The translations under genes and the position numbers were made by a program. From Chiloscyllium plagiosum (Eukaryota): a DNA stretch of 64,000 nt. A model generated the notes under the pieces. It was given only the letters and a program-made list of their open reading frames with translations. It was not told the origin of the DNA and did not search any database. Below, in pieces: positions 1 to 64,000 of this stretch (its first letter is position 1; each line of letters opens with the position of its first letter). The stretch is taken from positions 33,903,981 to 33,967,980 of the forward strand of contig NC_057719.1 of NCBI RefSeq assembly GCF_004010195.1, given 5' to 3'.

Positions 1-593
1 TCAATCCTACATGAGAATGAAAATATAGGCAGTCTTACTAGAAATTTGCAGGGTAGAATATGGAGATAACAGAATATGTATATGTATAATTCAGGGCTTT
101 TTAACGATGGTAACCATGTGCTTTTCTGTTTATTGAGTAGCATTTTATTTTCAACATTGTTCCATTTGTGTGTGAGATCATGTGAAATGCATGGAATATA
201 CAGAGCAGAAAAAAGTTGTTCAGTGCAACTTGACTGTTTTGTGATATACCACACCAGTCTCTTCTACCTGCTTCATCTTAGCCTTTCTGCTAAAAGGTAT
301 GCTTACACTAGAAAGGGTGCAGAGGGGATTTGCAAGGATATTGCCCAGACTCAAAAATGTTAGTGGATAGGGTATATTTTTGGCTGCAATAGAGGAGACT
401 GAGAACACAACTAATTGAACCTATAAAACTGAGGACTCCAGATAGAATAGATGGAAAAACTTCACCTTATCCTGTAACCAGGCAAATATTTATAAAATGA
501 GGAGGTTTTAAGGCAAATTGAGTTAATTTCTTTCATCAAAGGGTTACAGCACTTACTGCCTGAAGGTGTGGTAGACACAGATTGTTCACAGTG

Positions 594-810
594 GAAAGTG
601 AGGACTGCAGATGCTGGAGATCAGAGCTGAAAAATGTGTTGCTGGAAAGGCACAGCAGGTCAGGCAGCATCCAAGGAGCAGGAGAATCGATGTTTCGGGC
701 ATAAGCCCTTCTTCAGGACCTTAAGAAGGGCTTATGCCCGAAACGTCGATTCTCCTGCTCCTTGGATGCTGCCTGACCTGCTGTGCTTTTCCGGCAACAC
801 ATTTTTCAGC
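594..810. mobile_element. Palindromic Penelope-related mini-element, family A
   Basis: ~92-bp arms (625-716 vs 720-810) are reverse complements; flanked by imperfect direct repeat CACAGA(T/A)TGTTCA; hammerhead core at the centre. Confidence 0.85.
685..719 (-). ncRNA. Minimal hammerhead ribozyme motif (family A)
   Basis: Minus strand reads C-CUGAAGA-A-GGGC-UUAU-GCCC-GAAA-CAUC-GAUU: intact core, 4-bp helix II, AUC triplet. Confidence 0.65.
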
Positions 811-2931: not shown

Positions 2932-3358
2932 TTTTACCTCGTTAATTTTAACCCTACTGCGAATCCTCTTGCAAGGATGCCTGCCTTGAAGAAGTTAAGA
3001 AGTTTTCCTCCTCTCTCTACAAGAATCTCAGGGAGTCCCTCTCCCACTGCAACTCCCAGTTCATTTCCTCTGCCCTGAAGCTCTTCAACCATATCCTGAA
3101 GTCCACCTATCCACTCCACCCTCCTCCCTGACCTATCACCTTCATCCCCTCCCCCACTCACCTATTGTACTCAATGCCACTTTCTCCCCATCCCCACCCT
3201 CCTCTAGCTTATCTCTCCACGCTTCAGGCTCTCTGCCTTTATTACTGATGAAGGGCTTTTGCCCGAAACATCGATTTGTACTGCTCCTCGGATGCTGCCT
3301 GAACAGCTGTGCTCTTCCAGCACCACTAATCCAGAATCTGCAGTCATTGTTTTTACCT
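2932..3358 (+). mobile_element. Longer Penelope-related element (family A subtype) with pyrimidine-rich tract and hammerhead
   Basis: CTGATGAAGGGCTTTTGCCCGAAACATC at ~3245-3272; ends GCAGTCATTGTTTTTACCT, the same terminus as the 34115 and 60220 inserts; begins with TTTTACCT. Confidence 0.75.
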
Positions 3359-7200: not shown

Positions 7201-7284
7201 GGCAGAAACTATCTCACCAGCATAAGGATCCTGAATACAGTGACATGAACATCAAGATGTAAGCCTTGCAAGGGGAAGACTGCT

Positions 7285-7485
7285 AGGAGAAAGTGAGGAC
7301 TCCAGATGCTGGAGATGAGAGTTGTAAGTGTGATGCTGGAAAAGCACAACAAATCAGGAAGCATCCATGGAGCAGGAGAATTGATGTTTCAGGCATCCTG
7401 ATGAAGAGCTAATGCCTGCAATGTTGATTCTCCTGCTCCTCAGATGCTGCCTGACCTGCTGTGCTTTTCAAGCACCACACTCTCG
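7285..7485. mobile_element. Palindromic Penelope-related mini-element, family A
   Basis: Inverted arms around CCTGATGAAG at ~7397; TSD AAGGGGAAGACT at 7270-7281 and 7486-7497. Confidence 0.85.
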
Positions 7486-8064
7486 AAGGGGAAGACTACC
7501 AATAGATCCATTCACACTTTAAAGGCAATTATCCATGGTGTGCATTTTCTGTAACTTTACTGTGTTTGAGTGGGATTTCTGTTCTTGTAGCGAAAGTTTG
7601 AACAGCTTGGAGATGCAGTGGCCGACACACGCCAGCAGTCAATGGCCAGCAAGTTTGGTATTGGGAAGCAAATGGCACCGGATAATCATGCGGGGGGTGG
7701 GGGTGGCTGATGTGAAATTGCCAAGACTTGTCATTGGGAAGGATGATCCACACTCAACCAGCTGAACCCCCAGCTTTCATCCCACCATCGGGAAGTTGTT
7801 ATATTGTCCCCTTCTCAATGAAGTGCCTTACCTGCCACATTTCCTGCTCCTGAGAGCTTCAATGCTTATTGCGCCACATGCACAACTAGATCTCAATCAG
7901 ATGCTGCTTCAAGTCTGAAACACTTATTTTAAACTGCTGATTGCTGGTTATTTCAACTGATTTATTGAATCTTTGCAGCTTTTTATTCTTTATATTATGT
8001 TATTAGCTCCCCAGCTCCCTTGTTTGCTCCACAGATTGTTTAGCTTGGTAATACTGCTCCTGAC

Positions 8065-8237
8065 AGAAACATAGGAGCAGGAGTAGGCCATTCTGCCTTT
8101 CAAGTCTGCTCTAGTATTCTAGCTCGTGACTGATCATATTCCTCAATGCCGTATTCCCACATTAACCCCAATTCCCTTGATGTCATTAATAACTGTAAAC
8201 CTATCAAACTCTATCTTAACCTTACTTAATGACTGAG
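8065..8237 (-). mobile_element. 3' end of an old CR1 LINE (continues at 11608)
   Basis: AGAAACATAGGAGCAGGAGTAGGCCATTC resembles the reverse-complement CR1 3' ends at 25650 and 50997. Confidence 0.75.
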
Positions 8238-8239
8238 TT

Positions 8240-8343
8240 AGGAGAAAGTGAGGTCTGCAGATGCTGGAGATCAGAGATGGAAATGTGTTGCTGGAAAAGC
8301 GCAGCAGGTCAGGCAGCATCTAGGGAACAGGAGAATCGACGTT
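8240..8343 (-). mobile_element. Penelope-related family A arm
   Basis: Near-identical to 594-693; stops at GAATCGACGTT, inside the hammerhead helix III/GAAA. Confidence 0.85.
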
Positions 8344-9067
8344 GGAGTGGGAGTCCAAAGACCTGCATATCCTGGGTGGAGTGGGAGTCCAAAGACCTGC
8401 ATATCCTGGGTGGAGTGGGAGTCCAAAGACCTGCATATCCTGGGTGGAGTGGGAGTCCAAAGACCTGCATATCCTGGGTGGAGTGGGAGTCCAAAGACCT
8501 GCATATCCTGGGTGGAGTGGGAGTCCAAAGACCTGCATATCCTGGGTGGAGTGGGAGTCCAAAGACCTGCATATCCTGGGTGGAGTGGGAGTCCAAAGAC
8601 CTGCATATCCTGGGTGGAGTGGGAGTCCAAAGACCTGCATATCCTGGGTGGAGTGGGAGTCCAAAGACCTGCATATCCTGGGTGGAGTGGGAGTCCAAAG
8701 ACCTGCATATCCTGGGTGGAGTGGGAGTCCAAAGACCTGCATATCCTGGGTGGAGTGGGAGTCCAAAGACCTGCATATCCTGGGTGGAGTGGGAGTCCAA
8801 AGACCTGCATATCCTGGGTGGAGTGGGAGTCCAAAGACCTGCATATCCTGGGTGGAGTGGGAGTCCAAAGACCTGCATATCCTGGGTGGAGTGGGAGTCC
8901 AAAGACCTGCATATCCTGGGTGGAGTGGGAGTCCAAAGACCTGCATATCCTGGGTGGAGTGGGAGTCCAAAGACCTGCATATCCTGGGTGGAGTGGGAGT
9001 CCAAAGACCTGGCATATCCTGGGTGGAGTGGGAGCCAAAGACCTGCATATCCTGGGTGGAGTGGGAG
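8343..9067. repeat. Minisatellite, 34-bp unit TGGAGTGGGAGTCCAAAGACCTGCATATCCTGGG, about 21 copies
   Basis: Units start at 8343, 8377 and so on; essentially identical except 1-bp indels in the last two units. Confidence 0.97.
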
Positions 9068-9149
9068 TGAGTTAGTACAGCCCTCTGTGCGTTACAATCT
9101 TAAGGTTTCTCAATTCACCAAATGGATCACTGGTCTGCCTCCGAATCAA

Positions 9150-14049: not shown

Positions 14050-14335
14050 GTTTTAGAACAGCAGCTATTCATGATGATTTTACTTGCCATTTACACTTCA
14101 TCTGAACCCACCTTTTGTTTATTTACATATTCCATAACTTTCACCTTCTGCCTCCCACTCCAATAATCCTTATGTTTTTCTCCTCCTCCTCTCTTTCATG
14201 TCTGTACACTTGCTTAAAGGCTATTACAACTCTAACATTTTCCAGTTTTGATGAAAATTCAAAGTAAAATATTAACTCTGTTTTCCTTCCTGCAGATGCT
14301 GCTTGACCTGCTGAGTTTTTCCAATATTTATGTTT
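14050..14335 (+). mobile_element. Old Penelope-related element, family D
   Basis: Pyrimidine-rich tract, decayed TTGATGAAA core, then TTAACTCTGTTTTCCTTCCTGCAGATGCTGCTTGACCTGCTGAG shared with other family D copies. Confidence 0.55.
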
Positions 14336-14680
14336 CCTGAGTCTGCTTTTATATTAATTAATATATTTTGTTCTCTGGCCTATCGGCTCAGGAAGAATAT
14401 TAGCTGCAACAAGATTTTTATTGAGTATCAAAATAGAAATTACACCTTCCCTAGGCGATCATTTCTTCTCCACTGTATAAAGTGTCAACCTACATTACTT
14501 GGGCCCATAAGTATGCTGGGAAAACTGTGCAAATAAATGGCAGTTGCTAATTTTAGTTAATTAAAAATCTGGTTTAATGTATTTATTTAATGTTAAAAAA
14601 AAAGGTGTCAACTACTACAGGCTTTCCCTGACAAACTGGTGGTGTTTTAATGAACCTACCTTTTCCAGATTTTACACCAT

Positions 14681-14721
14681 GAGCTTTGACAAAGGGTCAG
14701 TTAGACTCGAAACATCAGCTC
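14681..14721 (+). ncRNA. Decayed minimal hammerhead motif (family D)
   Basis: GAGCT-TTGACAA-A-GGGTC-AGTTA-GACTC-GAAA-CATC-AGCTC: perfect 5-bp helix I, 5-bp helix II, core differs from CTGACGA by two transitions. Confidence 0.6.
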
Positions 14722-14818
14722 TTTTCTCTCCTTACAGATGCTGCCAGACCTGCTGAAATTTTCCAGCATTTTCTCCTATAGTTTCAGATTCCAGCATCCG
14801 CAGTAATTTGCTTTTACT
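14681..14818 (+). mobile_element. Penelope-related mini-element, family D
   Basis: Starts at the hammerhead, then CAGATGCTGCCAGACCTGCTGA...TTCCAGCATCCGCAGTAATTTGCTTTTA. Confidence 0.75.
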
Positions 14819-17236
14819 GAATCCATTCTGTTGGCATTATTCTATATCACAAACCAGCCGTCCAGCCAACTGAGCTAACAACTACCATTCTGAGCAGAAA
14901 GGTGTATTATGAAGTGGCTAAGTTTTATCCCTCAACAAATGCAATAATCTGAACACTTTTCCCAAAGCTCGCCACACGAACCTCCATTCTGTTTGCAAAA
15001 AGATTACCATATTTTACCAGGCCATAATGTTAACCAAATCTAGAAGTAGTCAATAAGTTAGCCTGTCTATGACTGTGGCTCTTGCACAATGTTTGTTGCT
15101 TTAGACTACTTTCACATGTGCCACTGTGCCAGATATTTGTGGCATTTCTGAGATGGTCGGTCTTCCAGACTCTCTCAGGTTTTACTTTAGAACTGTACTT
15201 CAGAAGTACCTAGTTGTTTGTAAAATATTTTGGGCACCTGAGATTGTGAAAAGTGCTACAGAACTATTTTTTCTTTTTTTCCCTTGCAGAATGCTGTTGG
15301 TCAGGTTTCCTCACTCAATAACAAGTGATTTAACAGAAAGTTTTGATTAATTAGCTAGTTTTGCAGTGCTCACCTCAGCTGAATTAAAGACCATGGCAGA
15401 TTTTAAGGGATTAAAACTGTATTCTTTGAAATTATTGGCCAAGATAGTTAAAGAAAAAGAATCACAGTTTAGTTCACATATTCAGTAATACAGTGTGAGA
15501 AAACAGCCAGAGTAATTTTTTTCAGACTTTCAGAAAACCATAGCTTGAAATTGAATTGGCACATCAACAGCAATACCAAATTGCCAAGGACAGTTTTTGA
15601 GTTTCTCATGTCAGGATTTTCAATTCTTGTTCAGGAATGTGCAGCTTCCAAGCTTGTATCCTGACCCAGGAAAATGTGGCACTGAAGGTCAGATTTTAAT
15701 GTCCCCTTGAGATAGGCTGAGCCAACCTGAAATGGGAACAGAAGTTATCAGGTAGCAGAGTGGAAAAAAGGTTATCTCAGTGCACCAGTGCTGTGATAAA
15801 GTTCAATTAATATGCTATTAAAGTACATCCTTCAGGTTCCCCATTCACTCTTCACAATCCCTTGCATCATCTCTATCAATCCATACCCATCATGTCCCCT
15901 GCACACCTTCATGGCCAATGATAGAATTTAGGAATAATAATACCAATTCATGCCAATCTTTGCACTCTACCCATCAAACATTGCCCTTATCCCAATCATG
16001 TAAACTCACTGAGATATAAAGTGTTTGTTACAGACTTCACAATATAAAATAATTTAAAACCCATTAATTTTATTTACACAACTTCAAACTAAAAAGAAAC
16101 CTTATAACAATAAAACTAATTCAAGTGCACAATAGCTTATAACAACAAGCATTTGGAATTCAGCATCCCACATAAAAGAGTTTATAACCAGTTGTAGTTG
16201 TCAACCAAACTAAGAAATTGCAGGCCATCTTCTTTGATAATGAATAAGTGAATAGTGAAATAAGTCATGCATCAGGAATCCAGCAATGAAAGTCCAGAGG
16301 TTTGTGTAAAGTGACAAAGCAAAATAGCATTTTATAGTATTGCAGATATTTTGTTTTCAAAAATTAAAACAGCAGGACTTTTAACTACTTTTATATCTTC
16401 ACACCCCCCTTTGACGAGTGCTTTTAAGAAATCCTCTTAACATTTTGATAGTTCTAAAATAGCACCTCTTGACGAGTCACTTTGATAGTTACTTTCTTCA
16501 TAGCTTTGATTTGACAGGTGTGCTGACAGTTCCAATGAACTTGACAGTTGGTGAGTTTATATACATTTGTGACACACACATTTATGCCTAGTTTTGACAA
16601 TTCCAAAGAGTACGTTACCTCTCCCAAAAGGCACCTGAAATTCACTAAAAGGCACTTAACTTTAACCAAAGGTTGTCCAGAACCAAAGCTAAAGTGGTAT
16701 CCTACCTCTACAAAAGGGTATTGTGTCTGTCCAAATCAATCCACAACATCAGACTTGCTCTTCCGTATTAATCTGCACACTTCGGATGTCAGACTCCAAG
16801 CCTACCAAAACCCCATGCCTGTGAAGTTGCTTGATGCTTTATATAGCACGCTATTTCTATAAAATACATATTTACAAGGCCTGTCCCATCTCCAACTCTC
16901 CACCCACCCTCATGCAAAAATAGAAGTGCAATATTTGTGGATAGGACACTTCCAGCATTTTCAACACGATGAAGAGGATCTCTGTAATGGCAAGAATCCG
17001 AGTTTTATTTTTCCAAAATAGCCTGACAAATGAAAGATTCTACTGTAGAATGTCCTGAATTACTGAGAGTTTGCAAAGAGTTTGAATGTCACCTCTACCA
17101 ATTAAAAATCTTCTTCAGCATCTTCCTAAATCCTTCCTATCCTCTGTCAAATATTTGATTAATCTATCAGGTTTTGTGCTGCATATATAATCTTACATAA
17201 AATATAAAATAACTTATGGTATATAAAACAAATTAA

Positions 17237-17650
17237 TTTGCATTTTGGGAAAGCAAATCTTAGCGGGAATTATACACTTAATGGCAAGGTCCTAGGGAGT
17301 GTTGCTGAACAAAGAGACCTTAGAGTGCAGATTAATAGCTCCTTGAAAGTGGAGCCGCAGGTAGATAGGATAGTGAAGAAGACATTTGATATGTTTTCCT
17401 CTATTGGTCAGAGTTTTGCCGACAGGAGTTGTGAGGTCATGTTGCGGCTGTACAAGACATTGGTTAGGCCACTGTTGGACTATTGTGTGCAATTCTGGTC
17501 TCCTTCCTATCGGAAAGATGTTGTGAAAGTTGAAAGAGTTCAGAAAAGATCTACAAGGATGTTGCCAGTGTTGGAGGATCTGAGCTACAGGGAGAGGCTG
17601 AACAGGCTGGGGCTGTTTTCCCTAGGAGGCTGAGGGATGACCTTATAGAG
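17237..17650 (+). mobile_element. CR1/HER1-type LINE ORF2 3' fragment
   Basis: ORF 17238-17633 HFGKAN...LYKTLVRPLLDYCVQFWSP...ERVQKR. Confidence 0.9.
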
Positions 17651-19190
17651 AGTGAAAAAGTTGCCACTTAGGTCTTTTTTTTATATCTTTCCCCTCTCAC
17701 TCAAAACCTATGCCCTCCAGTTCTGGACTCCCCCACTCCAGGAAAATACTTTGTCTATTTATCCTATCCATGCCCCTCATGATTTTATAAGTCTCTATAA
17801 GGTCACCCCTCAGCCTCCAATGCTCCAGGGAAAATAGCCCCAGCCTATTCAATCTATCCCTATAGCGCAAATCCTCCAACCCTGGCAACATTTTTGTAAA
17901 TCTTTTCTGAACCCTTTCAAGTTTCACAACATCTTTCCGATAGGAAGGAGACCAGAATTGCACACAATATTCCAACAGTGGCCTAACCAATGTCTTGTAC
18001 AGCCGCAACATGACCTCCCAACTCCTGTCGGCAAAACTCTGACCAATAGAGGAAAACATACCAAATGCCTTCTTCACTATCCTATCTACCTGCGGCACCA
18101 CTTTCAAGGAGCTATTAACCTGCACTCTAAGGTTTCTTTGTTCAGCAACACTCCCCAGGACCTTACCATTAAGTGTATAATTCCCACTAAGATTTGCTTT
18201 CCCAAAATGCAGCACCTCGCATTTATCTAAATTAAACTCCATCCACCACTTCTCAGCCCATTGGCCCATCTGATCAAAGTCTCATTGTAATCTGAGATAA
18301 CCTTCTTCGCTGTCCACTACACCTCCAATTTTGGTGTCATCAGCAAACTTACTAACTCTGCCTCTTAAATCATTTATATAAATAATGAAAAGTAGAGGGC
18401 TCAGCACCGATCTTTGTGGCACTCCACTGGTCACAGGCCTCCAGTCTGAAAAACAACCCTCCACCATCACCCTCTGTCTTCTACCTTTGAGCCAGTTCTG
18501 TATCCAAATGGCTAGTTCTCCCTGTATTCATGAAATCTAATGTTGCTCACCAGTCTCCCATGGGAACCTTGTCAAATGCCTTACTGAAGTCCATATGTAT
18601 AACATCTACTGCTCTACCTTCATCAAACCTCTTTTATCCACTTTTATGCGTTTCAAGAAATCCAGCACTTCTTCCTATGTAGTATGGGCATTTTTCAACA
18701 TGTCACCATCTATTTCCCTACATTCTATATATTCCATGTCCTATTGCACACTAAATACTGGTGCAAAATACTTGTTTATTATCTGCCCTATCTCCTGTGG
18801 CTCCACACAAAAGCTGCCTTGCTGATCTTTGACGGCCCTATTTTCTCCCTCTTTATCCTTTTGTCCTTAATGTACTTGTAAAAATACTTCTGATTCTCCT
18901 TAACTCCATTTGTCAAAGCTATCTCATGTCCCTTTTCTTCTCTCTTAAGTATATGTCTATTGCCTTTATACTCTTCTAAGGATTCACTCAATCTATCCTG
19001 TCAATACCTTCATTTTCTGAACCAAACCCTCAATTTCTTTAGTCATCCAGCATTCCTTATACCTACCAGCCTTTCCTTCTACCTTAACAGGAATAGACTT
19101 TCTCTGGACTCTTGTTATCTCATTTCTGAAGGCTTCCCATTTTCCAGCTGTGCCTTTACCTGAGAATATCTGTGCCCAATCAGCTTTTGT
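17651..19190 (-). mobile_element. CR1/HER1-type LINE, inverted, internally deleted and 3'-truncated
   Basis: Minus ORFs: [53 protein letters not shown]. Confidence 0.9.
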
Positions 19191-20309: not shown

Positions 20310-20452
20310 GCAAAAACAGAAATTGCTGTAAAACCTCAGTGTGTGTGGCAGCATTTATTTCGCTTCACAGATGCTGCCAGACCTGCTGTGCATTTCCAGC
20401 AATTTTTGTTTTCGTTTCTGACTTTCAGCACCCTCAGTTCTTTCGGTTTTTA
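20310..20452. mobile_element. Palindromic family D element with deleted centre
   Basis: AAAAACAGAAATTGCTG...GGCAGCAT inverted against ATGCTGCC...CAGCAATTTTTGTTTT. Confidence 0.6.
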
Positions 20453-20823
20453 TAAATAATCTAGGGGCCCAAGTCTTCCTACCGCATTGCCAAAGATTGA
20501 TTCTCCCACCCCACCCCTCTCCCTACCCCCTCCACCAACCCCTATTCATCAGCATTAAAATGGGCCCTGCTTTTCAGGGAGATCTCCAGGTACATCATGG
20601 TGGCCTCTCACATCTTCCTCAGGTAGGAGTGTTGGCTTTCCCTCTTAGGGATCCAAGTCACAAGCAGTAGGGGTCCTTGTGGCGGTGGTTGCCTCTGGCC
20701 CTGCAGTAGCAACCCCAAGTCTAGATGGTTTAGTTCTTCTTTTTTCAGGGACTGTCTGCCTGGACTTGACACATTGAAGAAACTCGCAAGCTCCTCAACA
20801 TGAAGCTGTCCAATCCTTTCTTT

Positions 20824-21030
20824 TGGAGAAATTGAGATCTGCAGATGCTGGAGATCAGAGTCGAAGTGTGTGGTGCTGGAAAACACAGCCTTTCAAGCAG
20901 TATGTGAGGAGCAGGAGAATCAATGTTTTGGGCATTAGCCCTTCATCAGGAAGGGCTGCTGCTGAAACATCGACTCTCCTGCTCCTCAGATGCTGCCTGA
21001 CTGGCTGTACTTTTCCAGCACCACACTCTT
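20824..21030. mobile_element. Palindromic Penelope-related mini-element, family A
   Basis: Inverted arms around CTTCATCAGGAAGGGC; degenerate TSD TCCA(A/C)TCCTT. Confidence 0.8.
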
Positions 21031-22266
21031 CCACTCCTTCCCTTAGCACGCTCAGCAGTTTGTTCATTCACCTCTGACACGAAAGTCCCCTCCATGATCA
21101 CACTGTCTGCTCACATGCATTTAGCATCCACATTTGGTCCCAGCCACTGCACTTTCAGCGTGTTGCTAATATGTTGTTCAGCATTTTCTGTTTTTATTTC
21201 ATCAAAACTATTATGGGCTCTAGTCTAGTCTATCAAAGGAAAAATATTAGTTGTGACACCTAAGCTTGAATAATTACTTTTCTGTATTTACTTGATATTT
21301 TTAGCTTTTGATTCATACCAATGTTATTTACCTTTTCTTGACTTGCTATGTCTTTCAATAAGACATCTCTTTAGTTATAAGTCTCCTGTAAGGGACCTTG
21401 TCAAATACTTTTCCAAAGTCAAGGTATACTTTCTGTTTCCTTCATCCAGCAACACTATTAGTTTCCCACAAATTTCAATTAATTCATTGGACATGACTTT
21501 CCCTTCAAGAATCTAGTTTAGATTTTGTTTATGGCCTTCCGTGTTGATAAATGATCATGAAATGTTACATTGCAGCACATTCTTGTATCTTTTGTATTAT
21601 TGATGTTAAGTCAACTGTCCCATAATTCTTAGGGTCACTTTGTCCTTTGGTGAAGATTGAAATCATATTCATTTGTTTTCAATGCTCTTGCTATTATGTG
21701 TGGTACAAGCACTCAACGAACAAGCTTCACCTTCCTTAACTCCCTTGAGCTCCTTGTAACTGACGATCAAAACAAACTCTTCAAAGGATTTCTGCATAAG
21801 TAAGATTTGTGGGAACTGAGAGCAAGTTTGGCTTTCAAGCAGACAAGGAGTATTGAATGGATTAACTTCTTGATCATCGTACAGTAGCAATTGAGTGGTC
21901 ATCCAGCATATATAGGAGAATTAGCCTCATGGGGTGTGCTTATTTGGGCAGCAAGCCAGAAGAGTAGAAAGTACCAATGTTTCCAGAAGCAGGGAGGATC
22001 CCACTGCATTCCATATTTAACTGAAAGGCTACTGTACACCTGGACAAGCATTGGCAGTATAATGGCCCAGGCACAAAGACATACTGTTCATGACACATAG
22101 TTGGCATGGCTGTCACTCCCTCACCCAAACACCCTCTTTGTCTAATCCTATTTACTGTGTAACCACCTATCCTTAGCTACATCTCTCAGTCACCAATACT
22201 CTGTCGACTAGAAACCCACATCTTGTCATTGCCAGGACGTGAGCATCACAGGCAGGCAAGAAATCA

Positions 22267-23072: not shown

Positions 23073-23639
23073 AAATCAGACTTGAGCAATTAATTATAGC
23101 CAGCAAATCAAGCACAAGCAAAACCAATAGATGCTGCAGTTCACTCCCATGTTGCCAATCAAGTGCTGGTCTTATGACCAACAACTGTTTTATAGTCCAT
23201 GATGCATCTAGCTCACATTTACTAGAACCAGGTGTCAGTCAGGTCTGGCTTGTAGCATCCAGCACAGCTGAGCTCTGTCATACACAAGGAGAGCTTCCTC
23301 TTCTACAACATCCTCATCCAGTTCCTCAAAAGACTGCTCCCATTCCCCTAATTCCTCAGCATCTATCATATCACTTCATTGCCTGCTCTGATAGTCACTG
23401 TGAGTGTCATTTTCACAGCTGCTTGTTTAAGCAGTAGTTGAAATGTCTTGCAGATGAGTTGGAGCCAAGCATGTGTTCAAGTGGAGATTTAGCTGGCAAA
23501 AAGTAGCTGATTGGTCTATGGACTAATAATCGGTTATCGTGATAAAGGTCTTCTGCTTACCAACAACTATGTGATTGGTTCTCAGGTAGCTGAACAGCTT
23601 TGGGTTGTGAATAAGATTGAGGAAAGCCATGAGTCTCCA

Positions 23640-23880
23640 TCAACTCCCTGTGTTCTGTCTTCTCAGCTACCTTCACCCACCCCCCCCCAACCCCACCGTT
23701 GGCCTCCTATTTATCTCTCAGCTCCCTTCCCCTCACCAACCCCCCACACCCCAATTTTGATGAAAGGTTTATGCTTGAAACGTCGAGTCTCCTGCTCCTC
23801 GATGCTGCCTGACTGGCTGTGCATTTCCAGCACCAAATTTTTCGACTCTGATCTCCAACATTTGCAGTCCCCACCTTCTC
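23640..23880 (+). mobile_element. Penelope-related element, family A (non-palindromic, with C-rich tract)
   Basis: TTGATGAAAGGTTTATGCTTGAAACGTCGAG followed by the family A body ending GCAGTCCCCACCTTCTC. Confidence 0.75.
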
Positions 23881-24485
23881 GTAAAGTGCATAAACCATGT
23901 TTTACATATTACACATGTGGAAGACAGATCAACCGAAGGCAGCGGCATTTGAACATGTGTACAAATGTTGTATACAAACTAAAACGCATCACCCACTCTT
24001 CCCCTGAAATAGCAGGTGCTGTGCTTGGAGGCAGGGCTTGCAGACCCAAACCTCGGCCACTATTTTTGTAACAATGGACAGCTTCTGCATCTGTGAGAAA
24101 ACATAGGTCTAAGTATGGTCTAATCAAGATTGGATACAAGTTTAATATCGCCTCTTTATTTTTCAATTCTATCCCTCTAGAAGTAAGCCATAGTGCTTCT
24201 TTGTTTTTGTTGTTGCCTCATTGATCAGCATTACAACTTGTGTATTTGAACTCCCAGATCACTTGACTTCTCTTGTCACTTAGCATCTTAGTTTGTAATT
24301 ACTATGTGACCTCCTTGGTTTTCTTAACAACATGTAATATTTCACCGATGTTGAAATTGTACATTCTACTGGTGGTGAGCAACTGGTGTAGTTTTGATCT
24401 ACAGCAAACTTAGTTTTAAACAGCACTTTATGAGCTGGCAAAAGTTATATGCCCCCAAAACCACACAGTTTATTGCATTACATTG

Positions 24486-26132: not shown

Positions 26133-26745
26133 AGATAGTGGCATAGTGATAAGATCACTAAACTAGTAATCTATTGACCCAAGCCAACACACTGGGGACC
26201 TGGATTCAGATCTCATCATAGGCGAAAGACCTGTCACCTTTACTCCTACCTCCATCCACTTTTTGCACTCTCATCTACCTTACCCCCAGGCCCAGCTCCT
26301 CCCATTTATCTCTTCACCCCCAAGGCTCCCAACTTCATTCCTGATGAAGGGCTTTTGCCTGAAATATCAATTTTCCTGGTCCTCAGTTGCTGCCTGACCT
26401 GCTGTGTTTTTCCAGCACCACATTCTTGACTCAGATCTCACCATGCTGACTAGCGAAATTTAAACTTGATAAATAAATCCAGAACTGAAACCTATTGTAA
26501 GCAATGGTGATCATAATGCAATTATAAAGTATTGTAAAGACCGATCACGTTGACTAATGTCTATTGGGAAAGAAAATCTGCTGTCTTTACCTGAGCTGGC
26601 TTACAGGTGACTCCATACCATCTGCAATTTGGTTGACTCTCAACTATACTTTGAAATGGCCAAAAGAGTCATTCACATGTAAAGCAACTGGGGATAGACA
26701 AATGCTGACCCAGCTAGCGATACCCATATCCCATGAAAGCACAAA
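26133..26745 (+). mobile_element. Second tRNA-derived SINE family, split by a family A insertion
   Basis: Head TGGCATAGTGATAAG...GGATTCAGATCTC; body matches 41735-42046. Confidence 0.75.
26220..26430 (+). mobile_element. Penelope-related element, family A, 3'-truncated
   Basis: CCTGATGAAGGGCTTTTGCCTGAAA at ~26340; duplication TCAGATCTCA(T/C)CAT at 26206-26219 and 26431-26444. Confidence 0.8.
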
Positions 26746-27795
26746 TAACGCAGTCTATGCTTGTCAGGTGATTGTAACAGCTACTTTAAATCCATTTTAA
26801 ATCATGAAAATGTCAGGTATTAAAGTCAAGTAATGAAAATTGAATATTGGCAGTCAATTTTCAGTATAAGGGTAACAACAGTTTGGACTTAAGTTTCTGT
26901 ATTAAAATGTCAGCCATTTTGACAGCTCAAATATGAGCATTTTGGGATTAAAAAAAAGGATTTTTAAATTTGTAACAAGCTCATGCCTTTATTTGACACG
27001 GCAAATTAGTTAAATAAATACTTGAAAGACCAAATTTGACTGGGTTAAAAGAAAGGAACAGGGGAATAGGACGAATTAGATAGCTCTTTGAAAGAGTTAG
27101 TATTCTTCATTTGTGATATAACTTTCCATAATTTTATAAATTCATAGTGAAAGGGACGGAATTAAAACTGGCTGAGCTTGTTGATATCAGTGCTCTTTTG
27201 CTACGGGTTATTATTAACTTTGTCCTGATACATTCAGATAGAATATCATAGATTTAACTTAGCTTTCAAAGATTTCAAGAGACCAAAATAAAAAAGGAGG
27301 AACAATCTCTTTGACTTATATAGAGGAGAGGAATAGTAGCTTGTGAGTTGCAATGATAACTTGGCCATTTCACTGAGCATGAAATTGAACACCTTTCACA
27401 GAAGACACATTCATTCAATCCTTTATCACCCAGAAATGAATTCAATTAGAAATCTGTTAACTCAACATCACACTAAACAAATTTTACTCACTTTTTCTAT
27501 TCAATTTTCATTATCTACATAAGAGATGTAAATATACATGAATAATTGAATGATAATATGGATTTCCCAAGCCATCTACAGAATTTATTAATTTGCAGTA
27601 CTGAATAAGACAAATCTTTAATAATTGAGAAATACTCGGTTGAGTTTCTGTATAAAACATCCCAAGTTGTTTTTTATGTTTAGTAAGCTTGTATTATCAT
27701 TGTTAGAGCATTGTCTGAAGTATTGTTATAATGATTAACTTTAAACCTGATCTGACTGTTTAAGGTCAGTGTTCAAAGTGAACACATTCAGGTAA

Positions 27796-28294
27796 AAAGT
27801 TAAAAATCACATAACACCAGGTTATAGTCCAACAGATTTAATTGGAAGCACTCTAGCTTTCGGAGCGACGGTCCTTCATCAGGTGATTGTGGAAATGTGT
27901 AAAACTTTCATGTGTAAATCACAAAACCCTTTTTTTTAAAGTTGCATTCTCGGGTTAGCTGTTAACAATGGTGATAGCTAGACAATATGTTAATGCAACT
28001 TTTAAAAAAAGGGTTTTGTGATTTACACATGAAAGAAGTGAAACTATCACTGTATTCTAACAGATGAAAGGTTTAACAGACAATCAATTTTTCAATGTAT
28101 AATTTCAGTTACATCACACTGCAAATTTTTGCTATAAATTCTGTGTTACGATCGAGCCCTCCACAATCACCTGATGAAGGAGCGTCGCTCCGAAAGCTAG
28201 TGTGCTTCCAATTAAACCTGTTGGACTATAACCTGGTGTTGTGTGATTTTTAACTTTGTACACCCCAGTCCAACACCAGCATCTCCAAATCATG
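27796..28294. mobile_element. Fold-back Penelope-related element, family B, about 500 bp
   Basis: Outer arms 27796-27893 vs 28161-28257, inner arms ~27905-27948 vs ~27992-28035; perfect 12-bp TSD ACATTCAGGTAA at 27784-27795 and 28295-28306. Confidence 0.9.
28168..28202 (+). ncRNA. Intact minimal type I hammerhead ribozyme motif (family B)
   Basis: CAC-CTGATGA-A-GGAGC-GTC-GCTCC-GAAA-GCTA-GTG: helix I CAC/GTG, 5-bp helix II, AGCT palindrome, CUA triplet with predicted cut after 28199. Confidence 0.8.
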
Positions 28295-33564: not shown

Positions 33565-34750
33565 ATACAGGGAGAATTAACCATTTGGATACAGAACTGG
33601 CTCAAAGGTAGAAGACAGAGAATGGTGGTAGAGGATTGTTTTTCAGACTAGAGGCCTGTGACCAGTGGAGTCCCATAAGGATCAGTGCTGAGTCCACTGC
33701 CTTTCATCATTTATATAAATGACTTGATGCAAGTATAAGAGGTATAGTTAGTAAGTTTGCAGATGACACCAAAATTGGAGGTGTAGTGGACAGCAAAGAA
33801 GGTTATCTCAGATTACAATGGGATCTTGATCAGATGGGCCAATGGGCTGAGAAGTGGCAGACGGAGTTTAATTTAGATAAATGTGAGGTGCTGCATTTTG
33901 GGAAACAAATCTTAGCAGGACTTATACACTTAATGGTAAGGTCCTAGGGAGTGTTGCTGAACAAAGAGACCTTGGAGTGCAGGTTCATAGTTCCTTGAAA
34001 TTAGAGTTGCAGGTAAATAGGATAGTGAAGAAGGCGTTTGATATGCTTTCCTTTCTTGGTCAGAGTATTGAGTACAGAAGTTGGGAGGTCATGTTGCGGC
34101 TGCTCAGGACATTGAGGTAAAAACAATGACTGTAGATGCTGGAAACCAGATTCTGGATTAGTGGTGCTGGAAGAGCACAGCAGTTCAGGCAGCATCCAAG
34201 GAGCTTCGAAATCGATGTTTCGAGGACATTGGTTAGGCCACTTTTGGAATATTGTATGCAATTCTGGTCTCCTTCCTCTTGAAAGTTGTGAAACTTGAAA
34301 GGGTTCAGAAAAGATTTACAAGAATGTTTTCAGGGTTGGAGGATCTGAGCTATCGGGAGAGGCTGAACAGGCTGGGGCTGTTTTCGCTGGAGCGTTGGAG
34401 GCTGAGGTGTGACCTTATAGAAGTTTATAAAATCATGAGAAGGATGGAGAGGAAAAATAGACGAAGCCTTTTCCCCAGGGTGGGGGAGTCCAGAACTAGA
34501 GGGCATAGGTTTAGGGTGAGAGGGGAAAGATATAAAAGAGAACTAAGGGGCAACCTTTTCACACAGAGGTTGGTAAGTGTATGGAATGAGCTGCCAGAGG
34601 AAGTGGTGGAGGCTGGTACAATTGCAACATTTAATAGGCATCTGGATGGTATATGAATAGGAAGGGTTTGGTGGGATATGGGCTGGGTGCTGGCAAGTGG
34701 GACTAGATTAGGTTGTAATATCTGGTTGGCATGGACAAGTTGGACTGAAC
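33565..34750 (+). mobile_element. CR1/HER1-type LINE 3' portion
   Basis: WIQNWL, SGVP.GSVL, KFADDTK, KLERVQKRFTRM, RTRGH, WNELP; 3'UTR. Confidence 0.9.
34115..34222 (-). mobile_element. 108-bp Penelope-related insertion (family A subtype) within CR1
   Basis: Perfect 9-bp TSD AGGACATTG at 34106-34114 and 34223-34231. Confidence 0.9.
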
Positions 34751-35689: not shown

Positions 35690-35900
35690 AGAAATAAATA
35701 CAGAATATTCGAGAGAAACTCAACAGGTCAAGTACCATCTGAGGAAAGAGGAACATACTTAACATTTTGAACCCAGTTCTTCACTTCTGAAGAAATGTTA
35801 TGCTAGACTCAAACCATTAACTGTTTCTGTCACCACAGATGCTGCCAGCCTGCTAGGTTTCTGTGTTTGTTTCACATTTTCAGCATCTACAGTATTTTGG
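35690..35900. mobile_element. Old palindromic family D element
   Basis: Degenerate inverted arms around TTCTGAAGAAA; right arm TTAACTGTTTCTGTCACCACAGATGCTGCC. Confidence 0.55.
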
Positions 35901-38019: not shown

Positions 38020-38245
38020 AATAAGCACAGAAAATGTTGGAAAAGTTAAGCGACTTCTGTGGATAAACAGGATTACATTTCAATTCATTGATCATTCATC
38101 AAAAGTTGTGTTACTGAAAGGTCATTGTTGAAACATTAACACTGTTTGTCTCTCCACAGATGTTTCCAGCCCTGCAATGTGAGTACTTTGAGCATTTTCT
38201 GTTCAGACTTAAGATTTTCAGTATCTGGATTATTTAACTTCTGTA
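38020..38245. mobile_element. Old palindromic family D element
   Basis: GAAAGGTCATTGTTGAAACATTAACACTGTTTGTCTCTCCACAGATG with a degenerate inverted left arm. Confidence 0.5.
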
Positions 38246-39350: not shown

Positions 39351-40394
39351 CTAGCTCTTGATATGACATTATATATACACTAAACAATAATAATGATAAT
39401 AATAGTCAGTAAATATTTTAGTATCTTTTTAGATATATTCTAATCCGCTTGTTAAGAGATGTTATTACACACCTTAGGAACAGGTGAGACTTCTGACCTT
39501 CAATAAATTCTGAACTGAAAGTGTTTCATTCACTAATTGCATCATCCTTGTTTCATTGGATTATACCTGTATTAGGATGAGCTAATTATCTATTGTTTAG
39601 ACACCAATATCCTTAAGTGGATCTGTGCTTACAGAAACTAATTGCTCACTGGGATGCGAAACTGATGTTTTGTGGGGAAATCACAGTTTCTTGAGATAAC
39701 AGGAACATAAATGTAAGCAGTTATCACAATTCCATTTTGTCTGAACAGAGGATCGTAAAAATGATGTTAGAACACTTTGAGCAGAGATCATCGATTGTGA
39801 AATAGGACAAAGTAACTATAATACTGGGAAGAAGGTCACTGACTTAAAACATTGATTCTGCTTTCTCTCACAGAGACTCTGAACATGCTGAGTTTTTTGA
39901 GCAGCTTCTGATTTTATAATAACCTGAGTCACTCACAGAACAGACTGAGGGATGAGGGATTCCATCATAACAGCTCAGACCTCCAGGTCTGGCGATGATG
40001 TTCTGTTGTCTCTCTGTGTCATACTGCATATAAATTCCATTGAGTTTGAGTCTGACCTCTGTTTAAACACATTTATTTCAGATGTTTGAAGTTATCAATG
40101 ATACAAGCAAGATCCAATGTAGTGAATACGTGCAAGGAATTCACATTTCTTGTGTGTGACTTTAGGGCTTCTATTGACTTTTTTTACTCTTGTAAAGAGG
40201 ATGTCATTTCTCTGCTGTTGGGAAGCTGGGACTGCTTCCTCTGACCCTTCTCACTGATACTTCTGCTAATTCTGCTTAGTGCATGGCCCTATGATAATGT
40301 CAAGGGCTCACCAATTAACTTGTGCCAAATAAGTAAATATGGAGCTGATATCATTTCACAGTAGTGGTTCAGACTTTTTGGAAATTATTTAATA

Positions 40395-52272: not shown

Positions 52273-52656
52273 TATTATTAACAAAGAAATAGCAGTATAT
52301 GCAGAAAAGAGTAACCCAGTCAAACAGTGTCAACACGATTTGTGAAAGGGAACTCATTGTCAACAAATTTGTTACTCTATGACAAGCAGAGTTGACAAAA
52401 GTGAACCCATAAATGTACTGTACTTAGATTTCCAAAAGGCATTTGATAAGATGGTTTAATTCTATTCAATAGGAGCTCACAGTCCTATTGTATTAGCATG
52501 GATTGAGGATTGCTTAAAACAGTATACAGAGAGAGTCTGGATTCATAGTTTTTTCTCACGTCAGAAAGACTGAACTATTGGAATCCCACAAGACACACAC
52601 TGTAGGGATTCTATTCCGTTCTATTCTATGACCTCAACTGTTTACTATCCATATTG

Positions 52657-52863
52657 ATGAGTGTGGTGCTGGAAAAGCACAGCAATTCAGGCAGCATCTG
52701 AGGAGCAGGAAAATGGAAATTTTGGGCATAAGCCCTTCCTGATAAAGGGCTTATTTCCAAAAACATCGATTCTGCTGCTCCTCGGATGCTGGCTGACCTG
52801 CTGTGCTTTTCCAGCACCACACTCTCAACTCTGATCTCAAGTATCACAGTCCTCACTATCTCC
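52657..52863. mobile_element. Palindromic family A element
   Basis: Inverted arms around CCCTTCCTGATAAAGGGC; approximate TSD CATATT(G/A)ATGA. Confidence 0.8.
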
Positions 52864-59039: not shown

Positions 59040-59172
59040 CAAAATTAAAAGTATCTGGATGCTGGAAATCTGAAGCAAAAGCAGAAAGAGTTGGAGATCT
59101 GTAGCAGGTCTGACAGCATCTGTGGAGAGAAAGCAGAGTCAACGTTTGAGGTCCAGTGATCCTTCTCAGGAA
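59040..59172 (-). mobile_element. Family D arm
   Basis: Minus strand CCTGAGAAGGATCACTGGACCTCAAACGTTGACTCTGCTTTCTCTCCACAGATGCTG. Confidence 0.7.
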
Positions 59173-59483: not shown

Positions 59484-62295
59484 CATAGAGTCATAGAGAT
59501 GTACAGCATGGAAGCAGATTCTTCAGTCCAACCCATCCATGCCGACCCGATATCACAACCCAATCTAGTCCCACTTGCCAGCACCCGGCCCATATCTCTC
59601 TAAACCCTTCCTATTCATAAACCCATCCAAATGCCTCTTAAATGTTGCAATTGTACCAGCCTCCACCACTTCCTCTGGCAGCTCATTCCTTTTACAAAAC
59701 ACCCTCTACGTGAAAAGGTTGCCCCTTAGGTCCCTTTTATATCTTACCCCACTCACCCTAAATCTATGCCCTCTAGTTCTGGACTCCCTACCCGAGGAAA
59801 AAGACTTTGTCTATTTATCCTATCCATGCCCCTCATGATTTTGTAAACCCTCAGCCTCCGATGCTCCAGGGAAACAGCCCCACCCTGTTCAGCCTCTCCC
59901 TATAGCTCAGATCCTCCAACCCTGGCATCATCCTTGTAAATCTTTTCTGAACCTTTTCAAGTTTCACAACGTCTTTCTGATAGGAAGGAGACCAGAATTG
60001 CACGCAATATTCCAATAGTGGCCTAACCAATGTCCTGTACAGCCGCAACATGACCTCCCAACTCCTGTACTCAATACTCTGGCCAATAAAAGAAAGCATA
60101 TCAAACGCCTTCTTTACTATCCTACCTACCTGCGACTCCATGTTCAAGGAGCTATGAACCTGCACTCCAAGGTCTCTTTGTTCAGCAACACTCCCTAGGA
60201 CCTTACCATTAAGTGAATAAGGTAAAACCAAGGGCTGCAGATGCTGGAAACCAGATTCTAGATTAGAATGGTGCTGGAAAAGCATAGCAGGTTAGGCAGC
60301 ATCCGACGAGCAGGAAAATCGACGTTTCAGGCAAGAGCCTTTCATTTGGAATAGAGTGAATAAGTCCTGCTAAGATTTGCTTTCCCAAAATACAGCACCT
60401 TGCATTTATATGAATTAAACTCCATCTGCCACTTCTCAGCCCATTGGCCCATCTGGTCAAGATCTTGTTCTAATCTGAGGTAACCCTCTTCGCTGTCCAC
60501 TACACCTCCAATTTTGGTGTCATCTACAAACTTACTAACTGTACCTCTTATACTTGCATCCAAATCATTTAGGTAAATGACAAAAAAGTAGAGGACCCAG
60601 CACCAATCCTTGTGGCACTCCACTGGTCATAAGCCTCCAGTCTGAAAAACAACCACCACCACCACCCTCTATCTTCTACCTTTCGAGCCAGTTCTGTATC
60701 CAACTGGCTAGTTCTCCCTGTATTCCATGAGATCTAACCTTGCTAATCAGTCTCCCATGGGGAACCTTGTCGAATGCCTTACTGAAATCCATATAGATCA
60801 CATCTACTGCTCTGCCCTCATCAATCTTCTTTGTTACTTCTTCAAAAAACTCAATCAAGTTTGTGAGACATGATTTCCCACACACAAAGCCATGTTGACT
60901 ATCCCGAATCAGTCCTTGCCTTTCCAAATACATGTACATCCTGTCCCTCAGGATTCCCTCCAACAACTTGCCCACCAACGGGGTCAGGCTTACCGGTCTA
61001 TTGTTCCCTGGCTTGTCTTTACTGCCCTTCTTAAACAGAGGCACCACGTTTGCCAACCTCCAGTCTTCTGGCATCTCACCTGTGACTATTAATGATACAA
61101 ATATCTCAGCAAGAGGCCCAGCAATAACTTCTCTGGCTTCCCACAGAGTTCTCGGGTACATCTGATCAGTTCCTGGGGATTTATCCACTTTAACCATTTC
61201 AAGACATCCAGCACTTCCTCCTCTGTAATCTGGACTTTTGCAAGATTCACCATCTATTTCCCTACAGTCTATATCTTCCATATCCTTTTCCACAGTAAAT
61301 ACTGATGCAAAATATTCATTTAGTATCTCCCCCATTTTCTGTGCCTCCACACAAAGGCTACCTTGCTGATCTTTGAGGGACCCTATTCTCTCCTAGTTGC
61401 CCTTTTGTCCTTAATATATTTGTAAAACCCCTTTGGATTCTCCTTAATTCTATTTGCCAAAGCTATCTCATGTCCCCTTTTTGCCCTCCTGATCTCCCTC
61501 TTAAGTATACTCCTACTGCCTTTATACTCTTCTAAGGATTCACTTGATCTATCCTGTCTATACCTTACATATGCTTCCTTCTTTTTCTTAACCAAACCCT
61601 CAATTTCTTTAATCATCCAGAATTTCCTATACCTACCAGCCTTTTCTTTCACCCTAACAGGAATATACTTTCTCTGAATTCTCGTTATCTCATTTCTGAA
61701 GGTTTCCCATTTTTCAGCTGTCCCTTTACCTGCCAACATTTGTCCCCAATCCGCTTTTCAAAGTTCTTGCCTAATACAGTCAAAATTGGCCTTTCTTCAA
61801 TTTAGAACTTCAACTTTTAGATCTGGTCTATCCTTTTCCATCACTATTTTAAATCTAATATAATTATGGTCACTGGCCCCAAAGTGCTTCCCTACTGAGA
61901 CCTCAGTCACCTGCCCTGCCTTACTTCCCAAGAGTAGGTCAAGTTTTGCACCTTCTTTAGTCGGTACATCCACATACTGAATCAGAAAATTTCCTTTTAC
62001 ACACTTAACAAATTCCTCTCCATCTCAACCCTTAACACTATGGCAGTCCCAGTCTATGTTTGGAAAGTTAAAATCCCCTACCATAACCACCCTATTATTC
62101 TTACAGATAGCTGAGATCTCCTTACAAATTTGTTTCTCAATTTCCCTCTGACTATTAGGGGGACTAGAATACAATCCTAATAAGGTAATCATCCCTTTCT
62201 TATTTCTCAGTTCCACCCAAGTAACTTCCCTGGATGTATTTCCAGGAATATCCTCCCTCAGCACAGCTGTAATGCTATCCCTTATCAAAAATGCC
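59484..62295 (-). mobile_element. Longest CR1/HER1-type LINE in the window: most of ORF2, frameshifted and 5'-truncated
   Basis: Collinear minus ORFs: VMVGDFNFPNIDW, FYKYIK, LNEYFASVFT, DWRLANVVPLFKKG, DSQHGF, YMDFSKAFDKVPH, KFVDDTK, LVRPLLEY; (CTATGACT)n tail. Confidence 0.95.
60220..60354 (-). mobile_element. 135-bp Penelope-related insertion (family A subtype) within CR1
   Basis: Duplication AGTGAATAAG at 60212-60221 and 60355-60364. Confidence 0.88.
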
Positions 62296-63720: not shown

Positions 63721-63736
63721 CTGGTCAAAATATAAA

Positions 63737-63941
63737 AGGAGAAAGTGAGGACTGCAAATGCTGGAGGTCAGAGCTGAAAAAATGTGTTGCTGGAAAAGTG
63801 CAGCAGGTCAGGCAGCGTCCAAGGAGCAGGAGAATCGACGACGTTTCGGGCATAAGAAGGGCTTATGCCCAAAACATCGATTCTCCAGCTCCTTGGATGC
63901 TGCCTGACCTGCTAGGCTTTTCCAGCAACACATTTTTCAGC
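63737..63941. mobile_element. Palindromic family A element
   Basis: Near-perfect inverted arms; TSD TCAAAATA(T/C)AAAAG at 63725-63738 and 63942-63955. Confidence 0.9.
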
Positions 63942-64000
63942 TCAAAATACAAAAGATCAATTTTGAGAATGAATTCAACTTCTAGTCATGAGCATCAATG

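What the first reader, a model, noticed from the sequence alone, without database searches (positions are those of the whole stretch)
594..810. About 200-bp fold-back mini-elements whose hairpin axis sits on the ribozyme
Seen: 594-810, 7285-7485, 20824-21030, 52657-52863 and 63737-63941 each have one complete arm ending in a fixed terminus (GGAGAAAGTGAGG on one strand) and one shorter inverted arm. The turning point differs between copies but always lies in or next to the hammerhead, and the copies have 10-14 bp TSDs. They look like MITEs, but asymmetric arms, variable centres and variable-length TSDs argue against cut-and-paste. Established: inverted pLTR structures are typical of Penelope insertions. 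Inference: each palindrome formed independently during target-primed reverse transcription by fold-back or template switch near the ribozyme.
Basis: partly seen in the sequence, partly recalled or inferred. Interest (0 to 1): 0.75.

Follow-up and report, generated by a model that had tools for sequence, protein, structure and literature searches.

The report
Two-ended Penelope retrotransposon stubs in shark
These five 200-base mirror-image repeats are real insertions of the short end piece of a very abundant Penelope-type jumping gene in what is likely shark DNA; the layout is already known for this class, but their ends suggest each likely formed when both cut DNA strands copied the same front end of the element's RNA, rather than by folding back at the ribozyme's cut site.

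Summary
Observation confirmed. All 5 elements are head-to-head pairs of one ~125-nt repeat end, flanked by 10-14-bp duplications (null 0.0003-0.008). The longer arm carries 33-42 extra bases, matching the known Penelope 'tail'. A sister copy runs into an ORF start linked to RT + GIY-YIG proteins. The repeat is very abundant (86,000-108,000 contig pieces per run). Not a MITE. The turn lies at the hammerhead's 5' edge or in stem II (positions -2 to +16), never at the predicted cut (+28/+29). In 2 of 5, each arm holds bases the other lacks, which simple fold-back cannot give without a later deletion. Best reading (inferred, 0.6): both target 3' ends prime reverse transcription at two start sites about 35 nt apart, both copies run off the RNA's 5' end near -3, and they join through 0-3-nt microhomology. 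The structure is in print (PMC3846280, PMC8557442); I found no paper proposing this mechanism in 7 searches. The scan reported the same thing before in this and other genomes (58 notes).

The parts
592..718 (-). E1 long arm: repeat end with tail; hammerhead core 716-689 on the minus strand, both core boxes present
719..810 (+). E1 short arm, tail-less; 96% identical to the long arm
576..588 (+). E1 left target-site duplication (right copy 810-822), 12/13
7286..7396 (-). E2 long arm, inner end at +15/16 (stem II loop)
7397..7485 (+). E2 short arm, inner end at 0/-1
7270..7281 (+). E2 left target-site duplication (right copy 7486-7497), 12/12
20825..20950 (-). E3 long arm
20951..21029 (+). E3 short arm; junction with up to 3-nt microhomology, same as E4
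20809..20818 (+). E3 left target-site duplication (right copy 21030-21039), 9/10
52661..52737 (-). E4 short arm
52738..52863 (+). E4 long arm with tail
52650..52660 (+). E4 target-site duplication (other copy 52868-52878), 10/11
63738..63856 (-). E5 long arm, inner end +12-15
63857..63941 (+). E5 short arm, inner end +4-7
63725..63738 (+). E5 left target-site duplication (right copy 63942-63955), 13/14
2932..3358 (+). Unfolded sister-subfamily copy: ORF start fragment (ATG 2977), pyrimidine-rich segment, hammerhead (core from 3245) and tail; links the repeat to Penelope-like proteins
26220..26428 (+). Unfolded copy with upstream sequence, ending at or just past the short-arm end; duplication 26203-26219 / 26428-26444 (15/17), which itself resembles the tail
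60222..60354 (-). Unfolded tail-bearing copy starting near -3, 10-bp exact duplication, inside a LINE fragment
34115..34222 (-). Unfolded tail-bearing copy starting at +20, 9-bp exact duplication
8240..8343 (-). Unfolded tail-bearing copy starting at +22, followed by a 34-bp tandem array inside the same duplication
23630..23882 (+). Unfolded tail-bearing copy with about 130 nt of upstream sequence; no duplication found

Best explanation
Each palindrome is a head-to-head pair of the ~125-nt hammerhead-bearing end of a Penelope-like retrotransposon inside a 10-14-bp target duplication, likely a dead-end product built at insertion when both cut target strands prime reverse transcription on the element's RNA. 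Shown: the element's 3' ends face outward at both duplication boundaries; one arm ends at about +125 and the other at +83 to +92; the inner ends lie at -2 to +16. Inferred steps: (1) the endonuclease makes a staggered cut leaving about 10-14-nt 3' overhangs; (2) one overhang primes at the outer start site and the other at an inner site about 35 nt upstream, as for the two start sites seen in vitro for the anole element; (3) priming happens on the 5' leader copy of the repeat, so both cDNAs run off the RNA's 5' end near -3, which is likely the transcription start; (4) the two cDNA 3' ends are joined with 0-3 nt of microhomology and loss of up to about 20 nt. The hammerhead would then sit at the axis because it lies at the RNA's front end, not because its cut makes the turn.
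For: Geometry: both arms read antisense outward-in from the duplication, as two target-primed cDNAs would. Short-arm outer ends fall within +83 to +92 in 5 of 5, giving tails of 33-42 nt; PLE tails are 30-40 bp (PMC8557442) and match the gap between two RT start sites, with both strands cut and extended in vitro (PMC11167929). E2 and E5: each arm has bases the other lacks; E1: no loop. Clustering: 8 of 11 insertions of these subfamilies in the window begin between -5 and +23 (binomial p 1e-7 to 1e-3 depending on the null). Public runs: loose ends with near-random, long flanks at window 3241 (= -3) in 3 of 4 runs' listed rows (348, 148 and 59 records), and about 9-12 letters past 711 in 3 of 3 DNA runs (661, 522, 694 contigs); loose ends at the long terminus (1506, 1041, 1576) and about 10 letters outside 635 (955, 596, 877), i.e. 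near the short-arm end. The ORF's first ATG lies 38 nt past the tail-end repeat in the 2932-3358 copy, so the hammerhead-to-tail piece is likely the 5' leader. The -5 to +1 letters of the 26340 copy fit the recalled initiator pattern YYANWYY with A at -3.
Against: Only 5 palindromes were mapped base by base; no genome was available. E3 and E4 fit fold-back equally well, and E2 and E5 could be E1-like palindromes that later lost their centre between short repeats. In one search none of the five window junction types is among the 15 of 116 joints shown; 3 of the 12 strand-change rows have a partner arm ending at +31 to +34, next to the predicted cut, and 2 at +46/47. Loose-end counts are confounded by subfamily differences at 626-635, 712 and upstream of 3241. 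No RNA start was seen: one search listed no pile-up of read ends, and run X22 laid 0 reads. In D. virilis the transcription start is 46 bp upstream of a 75-bp intron whose end abuts helix I, so a start at helix I is not general. The solo copy with a short-type end is ambiguous because its target resembles the tail. Both arms copy the same RNA segment, so two RNAs or strand displacement are needed; neither is shown.
Confidence: 0.6

Rival explanations
1. Fold-back or self-priming (first reader; related to the self-priming model of Arkhipova et al. 2013): one cDNA runs to the RNA's 5' end, turns on itself and copies itself back until about 35 nt from the insertion point; later deletions vary the centre.
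For: E3 and E4 junctions form a 3-bp stem with a 5-nt loop. Head-to-head palindromes were read as self-priming in PMC3846280. All five centres can be derived from an E1-like palindrome by deletion between 1-3-nt repeats. Palindrome centres are deletion-prone (general knowledge).
Against: Needs a later deletion in E2 and E5 and has no loop in E1. Does not explain why the short arm stops in a 10-nt window in 5 of 5, at the distance of the known second RT start, unless a bound protein blocks it.
Confidence: 0.22
2. Hammerhead self-cleavage sets the turning point: cDNA ends at the cleaved 5' end and is then inverted.
For: Three of 12 listed strand-change joints have one arm ending at +31 to +34 (71 contigs over three runs); one of them can slide to the cut itself through a 2-nt microhomology in one run. 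Two solo copies start at +20 and +22.
Against: 10 of 10 arms in the window extend 12-30 nt past the predicted cut, so their template was uncleaved. In those joints the other arm still reaches the 5' edge. Cleavage was not needed for insertion in vitro. At most a minority class.
Confidence: 0.07
3. A non-autonomous palindromic family that spreads as a unit (MITE-like or retroposed hairpin).
For: E3 and E4 share one junction; all five have similar size and ends.
Against: Four different centres in five copies; duplications of 10-14 bp; unequal arms; two subfamilies each present on both arms of a copy; long-long and short-short pairs of E3/E4 (82%, 77%) are no closer than cross pairs (85%, 80%). 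A retroposed hairpin would be expected to carry flank or ragged ends on the short side. The test is weak, since a young master would have identical arms.
Confidence: 0.07
4. Palindromes arose after insertion, by replication template switching at a solo copy or by a second insertion into the first.
For: Solo copies are as common as palindromes in the window (6 versus 5).
Against: One target duplication encloses both arms in 5 of 5, and the short arm always lacks just the tail.
Confidence: 0.04

Closest known systems
Insertion units of endonuclease-positive Penelope-like elements with inverted pLTR, one-sided tail and TSD (Pen2a_Av and relatives, PMC3846280; Fig. 2 of PMC8557442; PMC8969392) - passages read
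   Same: Head-to-head inverted 5'-truncated copy, 30-40-bp tail on one end, 8-10-bp or longer target duplication, 'AT-rich' or variable targets.
   Different: Here no ORF or direct pLTR lies between the arms: the unit is reduced to about 200 bp, and the inner ends cluster at one place. The published reading is self-priming on an antisense template.
Poseidon of Anolis carolinensis (PAc) in vitro, PMC11167929 - abstract and main text read
   Same: Hammerhead in the pLTR; both target strands cut and extended; two internal RT start sites that bound the tail; ribozyme cleavage not needed.
   Different: In PAc the ORF starts in stem II and the start sites lie inside the ORF; here the first ATG appears to lie past the tail. 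The parts read do not explain inverted copies.
Minimal type I hammerheads of metazoan pLTRs, PMC4209133 - results and discussion read
   Same: CUGANGA and GAAA boxes, extra base before stem II, short helix I, no real helix III; the paper notes pairs on opposite strands 100-700 bp apart and many truncated singles.
   Different: Stem II is 4-5 bp here (7-8 bp in Schistosoma); the two copies abut; 9 of 10 arms have a broken or missing core.
LINE-1 twin priming (recalled, not from a call)
   Same: Both target strands prime on the RNA, giving an inversion inside one target duplication with microhomology at the joint.
   Different: LINE-1 inversions are largely non-overlapping and the second primer lands at variable sites; here the arms overlap almost fully and the second start is fixed.
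Non-LTR retrozymes (bioRxiv 10.64898/2026.07.22.740005 - abstract, introduction, passages)
   Same: Non-coding pLTR-derived repeats with a type I hammerhead, also in a cartilaginous fish.
   Different: Retrozymes are head-to-tail tandems; these are single head-to-head pairs.
MITEs (recalled)
   Same: Short, non-coding, hairpin-forming, high copy.
   Different: Unequal arms, variable centres, 10-14-bp variable duplications, retroelement origin.

Membership tests
EN+ Penelope-like element (insertion derivative) | Parent ORF with PLE reverse transcriptase and C-terminal GIY-YIG endonuclease | tested here: inconclusive
   The stubs have no ORF. Indirect chain: window 2952-3110 (sister subfamily, 84-87% to E1/E4 arms) matches P0001 (80%) and P0024 (57%); P0024 matches P0025 (E 3e-13); P0025 is 882 aa with GIY-YIG at 782-823 (1 of 11 proteins scanned had a Pfam hit) and RT-like motifs read by eye. 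No intact parent from this genome was seen.
EN+ Penelope-like element (insertion derivative) | pLTR with a minimal type I hammerhead motif | tested here: met
   Core boxes in 3 copies; stems I and II paired in 82% of cells, 6 of 7 pairs with two-sided changes, slid controls 17-49% (12 rows, partly misaligned, structure drawn from these sequences). No Rfam hit.
EN+ Penelope-like element (insertion derivative) | Self-cleavage of the hammerhead | not testable with these tools
   Needs an in vitro assay.
EN+ Penelope-like element (insertion derivative) | Inverted 5'-truncated copy joined head to head | tested here: met
   5 of 5.
EN+ Penelope-like element (insertion derivative) | 30-40-bp tail at one end only | tested here: met
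   33-42 nt, on one arm in 5 of 5.
EN+ Penelope-like element (insertion derivative) | Variable-length target-site duplication | tested here: met
   10-14 bp in 5 of 5 palindromes; 9-17 bp in 4 of 6 solos.
Neptune versus Penelope/Poseidon clade | Zn-finger-like linker between RT and EN | tested here: inconclusive
   A cysteine motif precedes the endonuclease in the distant relative P0025; the parent of this repeat was not recovered.
MITE (class II) | Symmetric terminal inverted repeats reaching both ends | tested here: not met
   33-42 nt excess on one arm in 5 of 5.
MITE (class II) | Fixed short target duplication and uniform internal structure | tested here: not met
   10-14 bp; four different centres among five copies.
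Non-LTR retrozyme | Head-to-tail tandem units, each with a hammerhead | tested here: not met
   The five are single inverted pairs; no such array among 4 tandem repeats in the window. Head-to-tail joints of the family exist elsewhere (40 contigs).

The most novel reading that the evidence does not exclude
Penelope-like elements integrate by two-ended target priming from two fixed RNA start sites, and these shark stubs are the run-off products on the 5' leader: one mechanism would explain the inverted pLTR, the one-sided tail and the target duplication of the whole class, and the palindrome centres would map the element's capped transcription start just in front of the ribozyme.
Probability: 0.45. 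Interest if true: 0.68.

Novelty: new member of a known kind. Interest (0 to 1): 0.42.

Why it matters
How Penelope-like elements make their tandem and inverted structures is stated as open (PMC8557442). Thousands of minimal insertions with measurable ends make the competing models (two-ended priming, self-priming, ribozyme cut) countable in one shark assembly and testable in the existing anole in vitro system. Practically, such stubs are easy to misfile as MITEs or microRNA hairpins. As objects they are ordinary by-products of a known class.

Tried and rejected
No whole genome is held for the window, so the genome-wide breakpoint plot could not be made. Exact-motif scans found 0 matches in viral contigs and 0 in metagenome contigs. 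Rfam found no hammerhead; the microRNA hits are below their gathering scores and reflect the hairpin only. Energy folding recovers stem II in 4 of 6 stretches but not the hammerhead fold; only 1 of 6 had z below -3. No RNA holder listed; X22 laid nothing; X21 showed no pile-up of ends, so the start site was not tested. A 3' splice site about 17 nt upstream of the core was considered as the boundary; none of the 15 of 134 joints shown ends there. RT stalling on helix I was rejected by reasoning: a stall would occur on the 3' side of the helix, not at its 5' end. Arm-versus-copy identity did not separate models: within copies 76-96% (mean 85), between copies mean 83 over 40 pairs, explained by subfamily and age. 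A cap-derived extra base (lead from earlier notes): 2 of 12 listed inserts next to position 718 begin with the two expected letters plus a C that the upstream sequence does not give, but none of the five window junctions or the solo starting at -3 shows it clearly; inconclusive. Literature: 7 searches found no paper on these shark stubs or on twin priming in PLEs; subscription papers (e.g. Arkhipova 2006, Evgen'ev and Arkhipova 2005) are outside the library and no supplements were read, so either may already describe them.

Full report
Observation. The five elements are in the sequence as described. Each has a long arm beginning at the repeat's terminus and a shorter inverted arm. A scored search for direct repeats at the two boundaries gave 12/13, 12/12, 9/10, 10/11 and 13/14 matches; random window positions did as well in 1, 1, 25, 5 and 2 of 3000 trials. 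The same repeat occurs six more times in the window without an inverted partner, four of them with 9-17-bp duplications, and older related families give four further fold-back-like pairs.

What the repeat is. Read on the strand of the short arm, the repeat starts with a minimal type I hammerhead motif: CUGANGA, an extra A, a 4-bp stem II, GAAA and a predicted cut after position +28 (numbering +1 = first C of the box). Rfam does not detect it. Across 12 window copies from young and old families the two stems pair in 82% of cells with two-sided changes in 6 of 7 pairs, against 17-49% when partners are slid; the alignment is small and partly off-register and the structure was drawn from these sequences, so this is supportive, not proof. 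Only 1 of the 10 arms keeps both core boxes. One unfolded copy of a sister subfamily (2932-3358) carries an ORF start that matches a Chiloscyllium punctatum protein at 80% and P0024 at 57%. P0024 aligns to P0025 (E 3e-13), an 882-aa protein with a GIY-YIG domain (the only Pfam hit among 11 proteins) and RT-like motifs read by eye. So the repeat is the pLTR end of an endonuclease-bearing Penelope-like element, probably of a carpet shark; the link to the enzyme is indirect and no intact parent was seen. It is very abundant: 108,294, 86,342 and 87,549 contig pieces from three public DNA runs lay on the 125-nt arm (not a copy number).

Anatomy of the ends. In every palindrome the element's 3' ends face outward, against the duplications. 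The long arm ends near +125 and the short arm at +83 to +92, a difference of 33-42 nt. This is the 30-40-bp tail found on one end of PLE insertion units (PMC8557442, passages; PMC3846280, passages). For the anole element the tail equals the gap between two RT start sites, and both target strands are cut and extended in vitro (PMC11167929, main text). In public contigs loose ends pile up at the long terminus (1506, 1041, 1576) and about ten letters outside position 635 (955, 596, 877), close to the short-arm end, although a subfamily indel at 626-635 confounds the second count (17 of 673 rows shown).

The centres. Inner ends (long / short arm) are E1 -1 / 0, E2 +15-16 / -1-0, E3 and E4 about -2 to +1 / +6-9, E5 +12-15 / +4-7, with 0-3 nt of microhomology. 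All 10 arms extend past the predicted cut, so their templates were uncleaved. Of 11 insertions of these subfamilies in the window, 8 begin between -5 and +23 (p 1e-7 to 1e-3 under three nulls; very short remnants could have been missed). In public runs, loose ends with long, near-random flanks occur at -3 (348, 148, 59 records; listed for 3 of 4 runs; 24 of 1220 rows shown) and 9-12 letters beyond 711 (661, 522, 694 contigs), and depth rises 1.8- to 3.9-fold across this edge in all four runs; differing upstream sequence among subfamilies contributes to both. Of the 15 joints shown out of 116, 12 change strand. Five pair an arm reaching the reference's edge (-1 to +2) with a partner ending at +31 to +34 or +46/47. 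Five pair the tail piece with an inverted arm starting at -1, 0, +6, +13 or +27 (50 of 58 contigs at +6 or upstream); these are either ordinary palindromes whose long-arm body the tool dropped or true tail-only arms, and I could not tell which. Two join outer ends. None of the five window junction types is listed, and the tool says some joints were not counted.

Mechanism. I favour two-ended priming (0.6). The two 3' overhangs of a staggered cut would prime at the outer and inner start sites; both cDNAs would run to the RNA's 5' end near -3 and be joined with small losses. Three points support this over fold-back: E2 and E5 have bases unique to each arm; E1 has no loop; and the short arm stops in a 10-nt window at the distance of a known second start site. 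The first ATG lies 38 nt past the tail-end repeat in the 2932-3358 copy, so the hammerhead-to-tail piece is likely the 5' leader, and the letters around -3 fit the recalled initiator pattern. A transcription start there is inferred only: no RNA ends were seen, and in D. virilis the start lies further upstream with an intron ending at helix I (PMC2377424, passages; PMC4209133). Fold-back with later central deletion remains possible (0.22), since E3 and E4 fit it and all centres derive from an E1-like form by short-repeat deletion. Ribozyme cleavage may account for a minority class of joints (0.07). Unit amplification is unlikely (0.07): both arms of E1 and E5 carry one subfamily's diagnostic bases and E2-E4 another's, arms within a copy (76-96%) are no closer than same-subfamily arms between copies, and there is no long-versus-short lineage signal, though E3 and E4 share a junction.

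Comparison and novelty. The layout (inverted pLTR, one-sided tail, variable duplication, opposite-strand hammerhead pairs) is in print for this class. It fails MITE and retrozyme membership tests. What I did not find in 7 searches is a description of these ORF-less stubs in sharks or a two-ended priming model for PLEs; older subscription papers and supplements were not seen. The scan's own notes report the same elements and similar readings many times (58 notes in at least 9 genomes; more in this genome); they are unchecked and are not counted as support. My reading before those look-ups already had the inverted PLE pair, the tail and the clustering at the 5' edge; the wording 'front end of the RNA', the pointer to PMC3846280 and the cap idea came from them. 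Verdict: real, new member of a known kind, interest 0.42 for the testable mechanism.

Noticed in passing
window 8231-9075: A tail-bearing solo copy is followed directly by a 34-bp tandem array (21.4 copies, 99% match), and one 11-bp duplication (10/11) encloses both; the array may have been inserted with the element or expanded from the junction.
   Followed up: partly
window 2932-3358: About 420-bp unit that begins with the sequence that follows the tail and ends with the tail, sharing 8 nt at both ends: looks like one turn of an internally deleted, circularly permuted (retrozyme-like) monomer. Many other internal deletions appear as skips.
   Followed up: partly
window 20310-20460, 35693-35904, 38026-38238, 62650-62832: Older, more diverged fold-back pairs from related PLE-end families; further old solos at 14259-14372, 14688-14826, 39828-39914, 42333-42419, 59029-59155.
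   Followed up: partly
joints, reference window 560-718: Outer-end to outer-end strand changes (594 with 636 or 650; 14 contigs each) and head-to-tail returns (718 to 595; 40 contigs) exist in public runs; letters between are unknown.
   Followed up: no
window 17239-18211: Inverted pair of 385-nt arms at 94% complementarity made of LINE (CR1-like, recalled) ORF fragments.
   Followed up: no
window 27792-28261: Nested inverted repeats (102 nt at 95%, 44 nt at 98%), possibly a true DNA-transposon derivative.
   Followed up: no
window 34106-34231 and 60212-60364: Two solo copies sit inside LINE ORF fragments with exact 9- and 10-bp duplications, so they postdate those LINEs.
   Followed up: partly
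P0039: A public protein model with an immunoglobulin-like N-terminal part ends in about 30 residues of this element's ORF start (87% to P0001), suggesting exonisation or a mis-predicted last exon.
   Followed up: no
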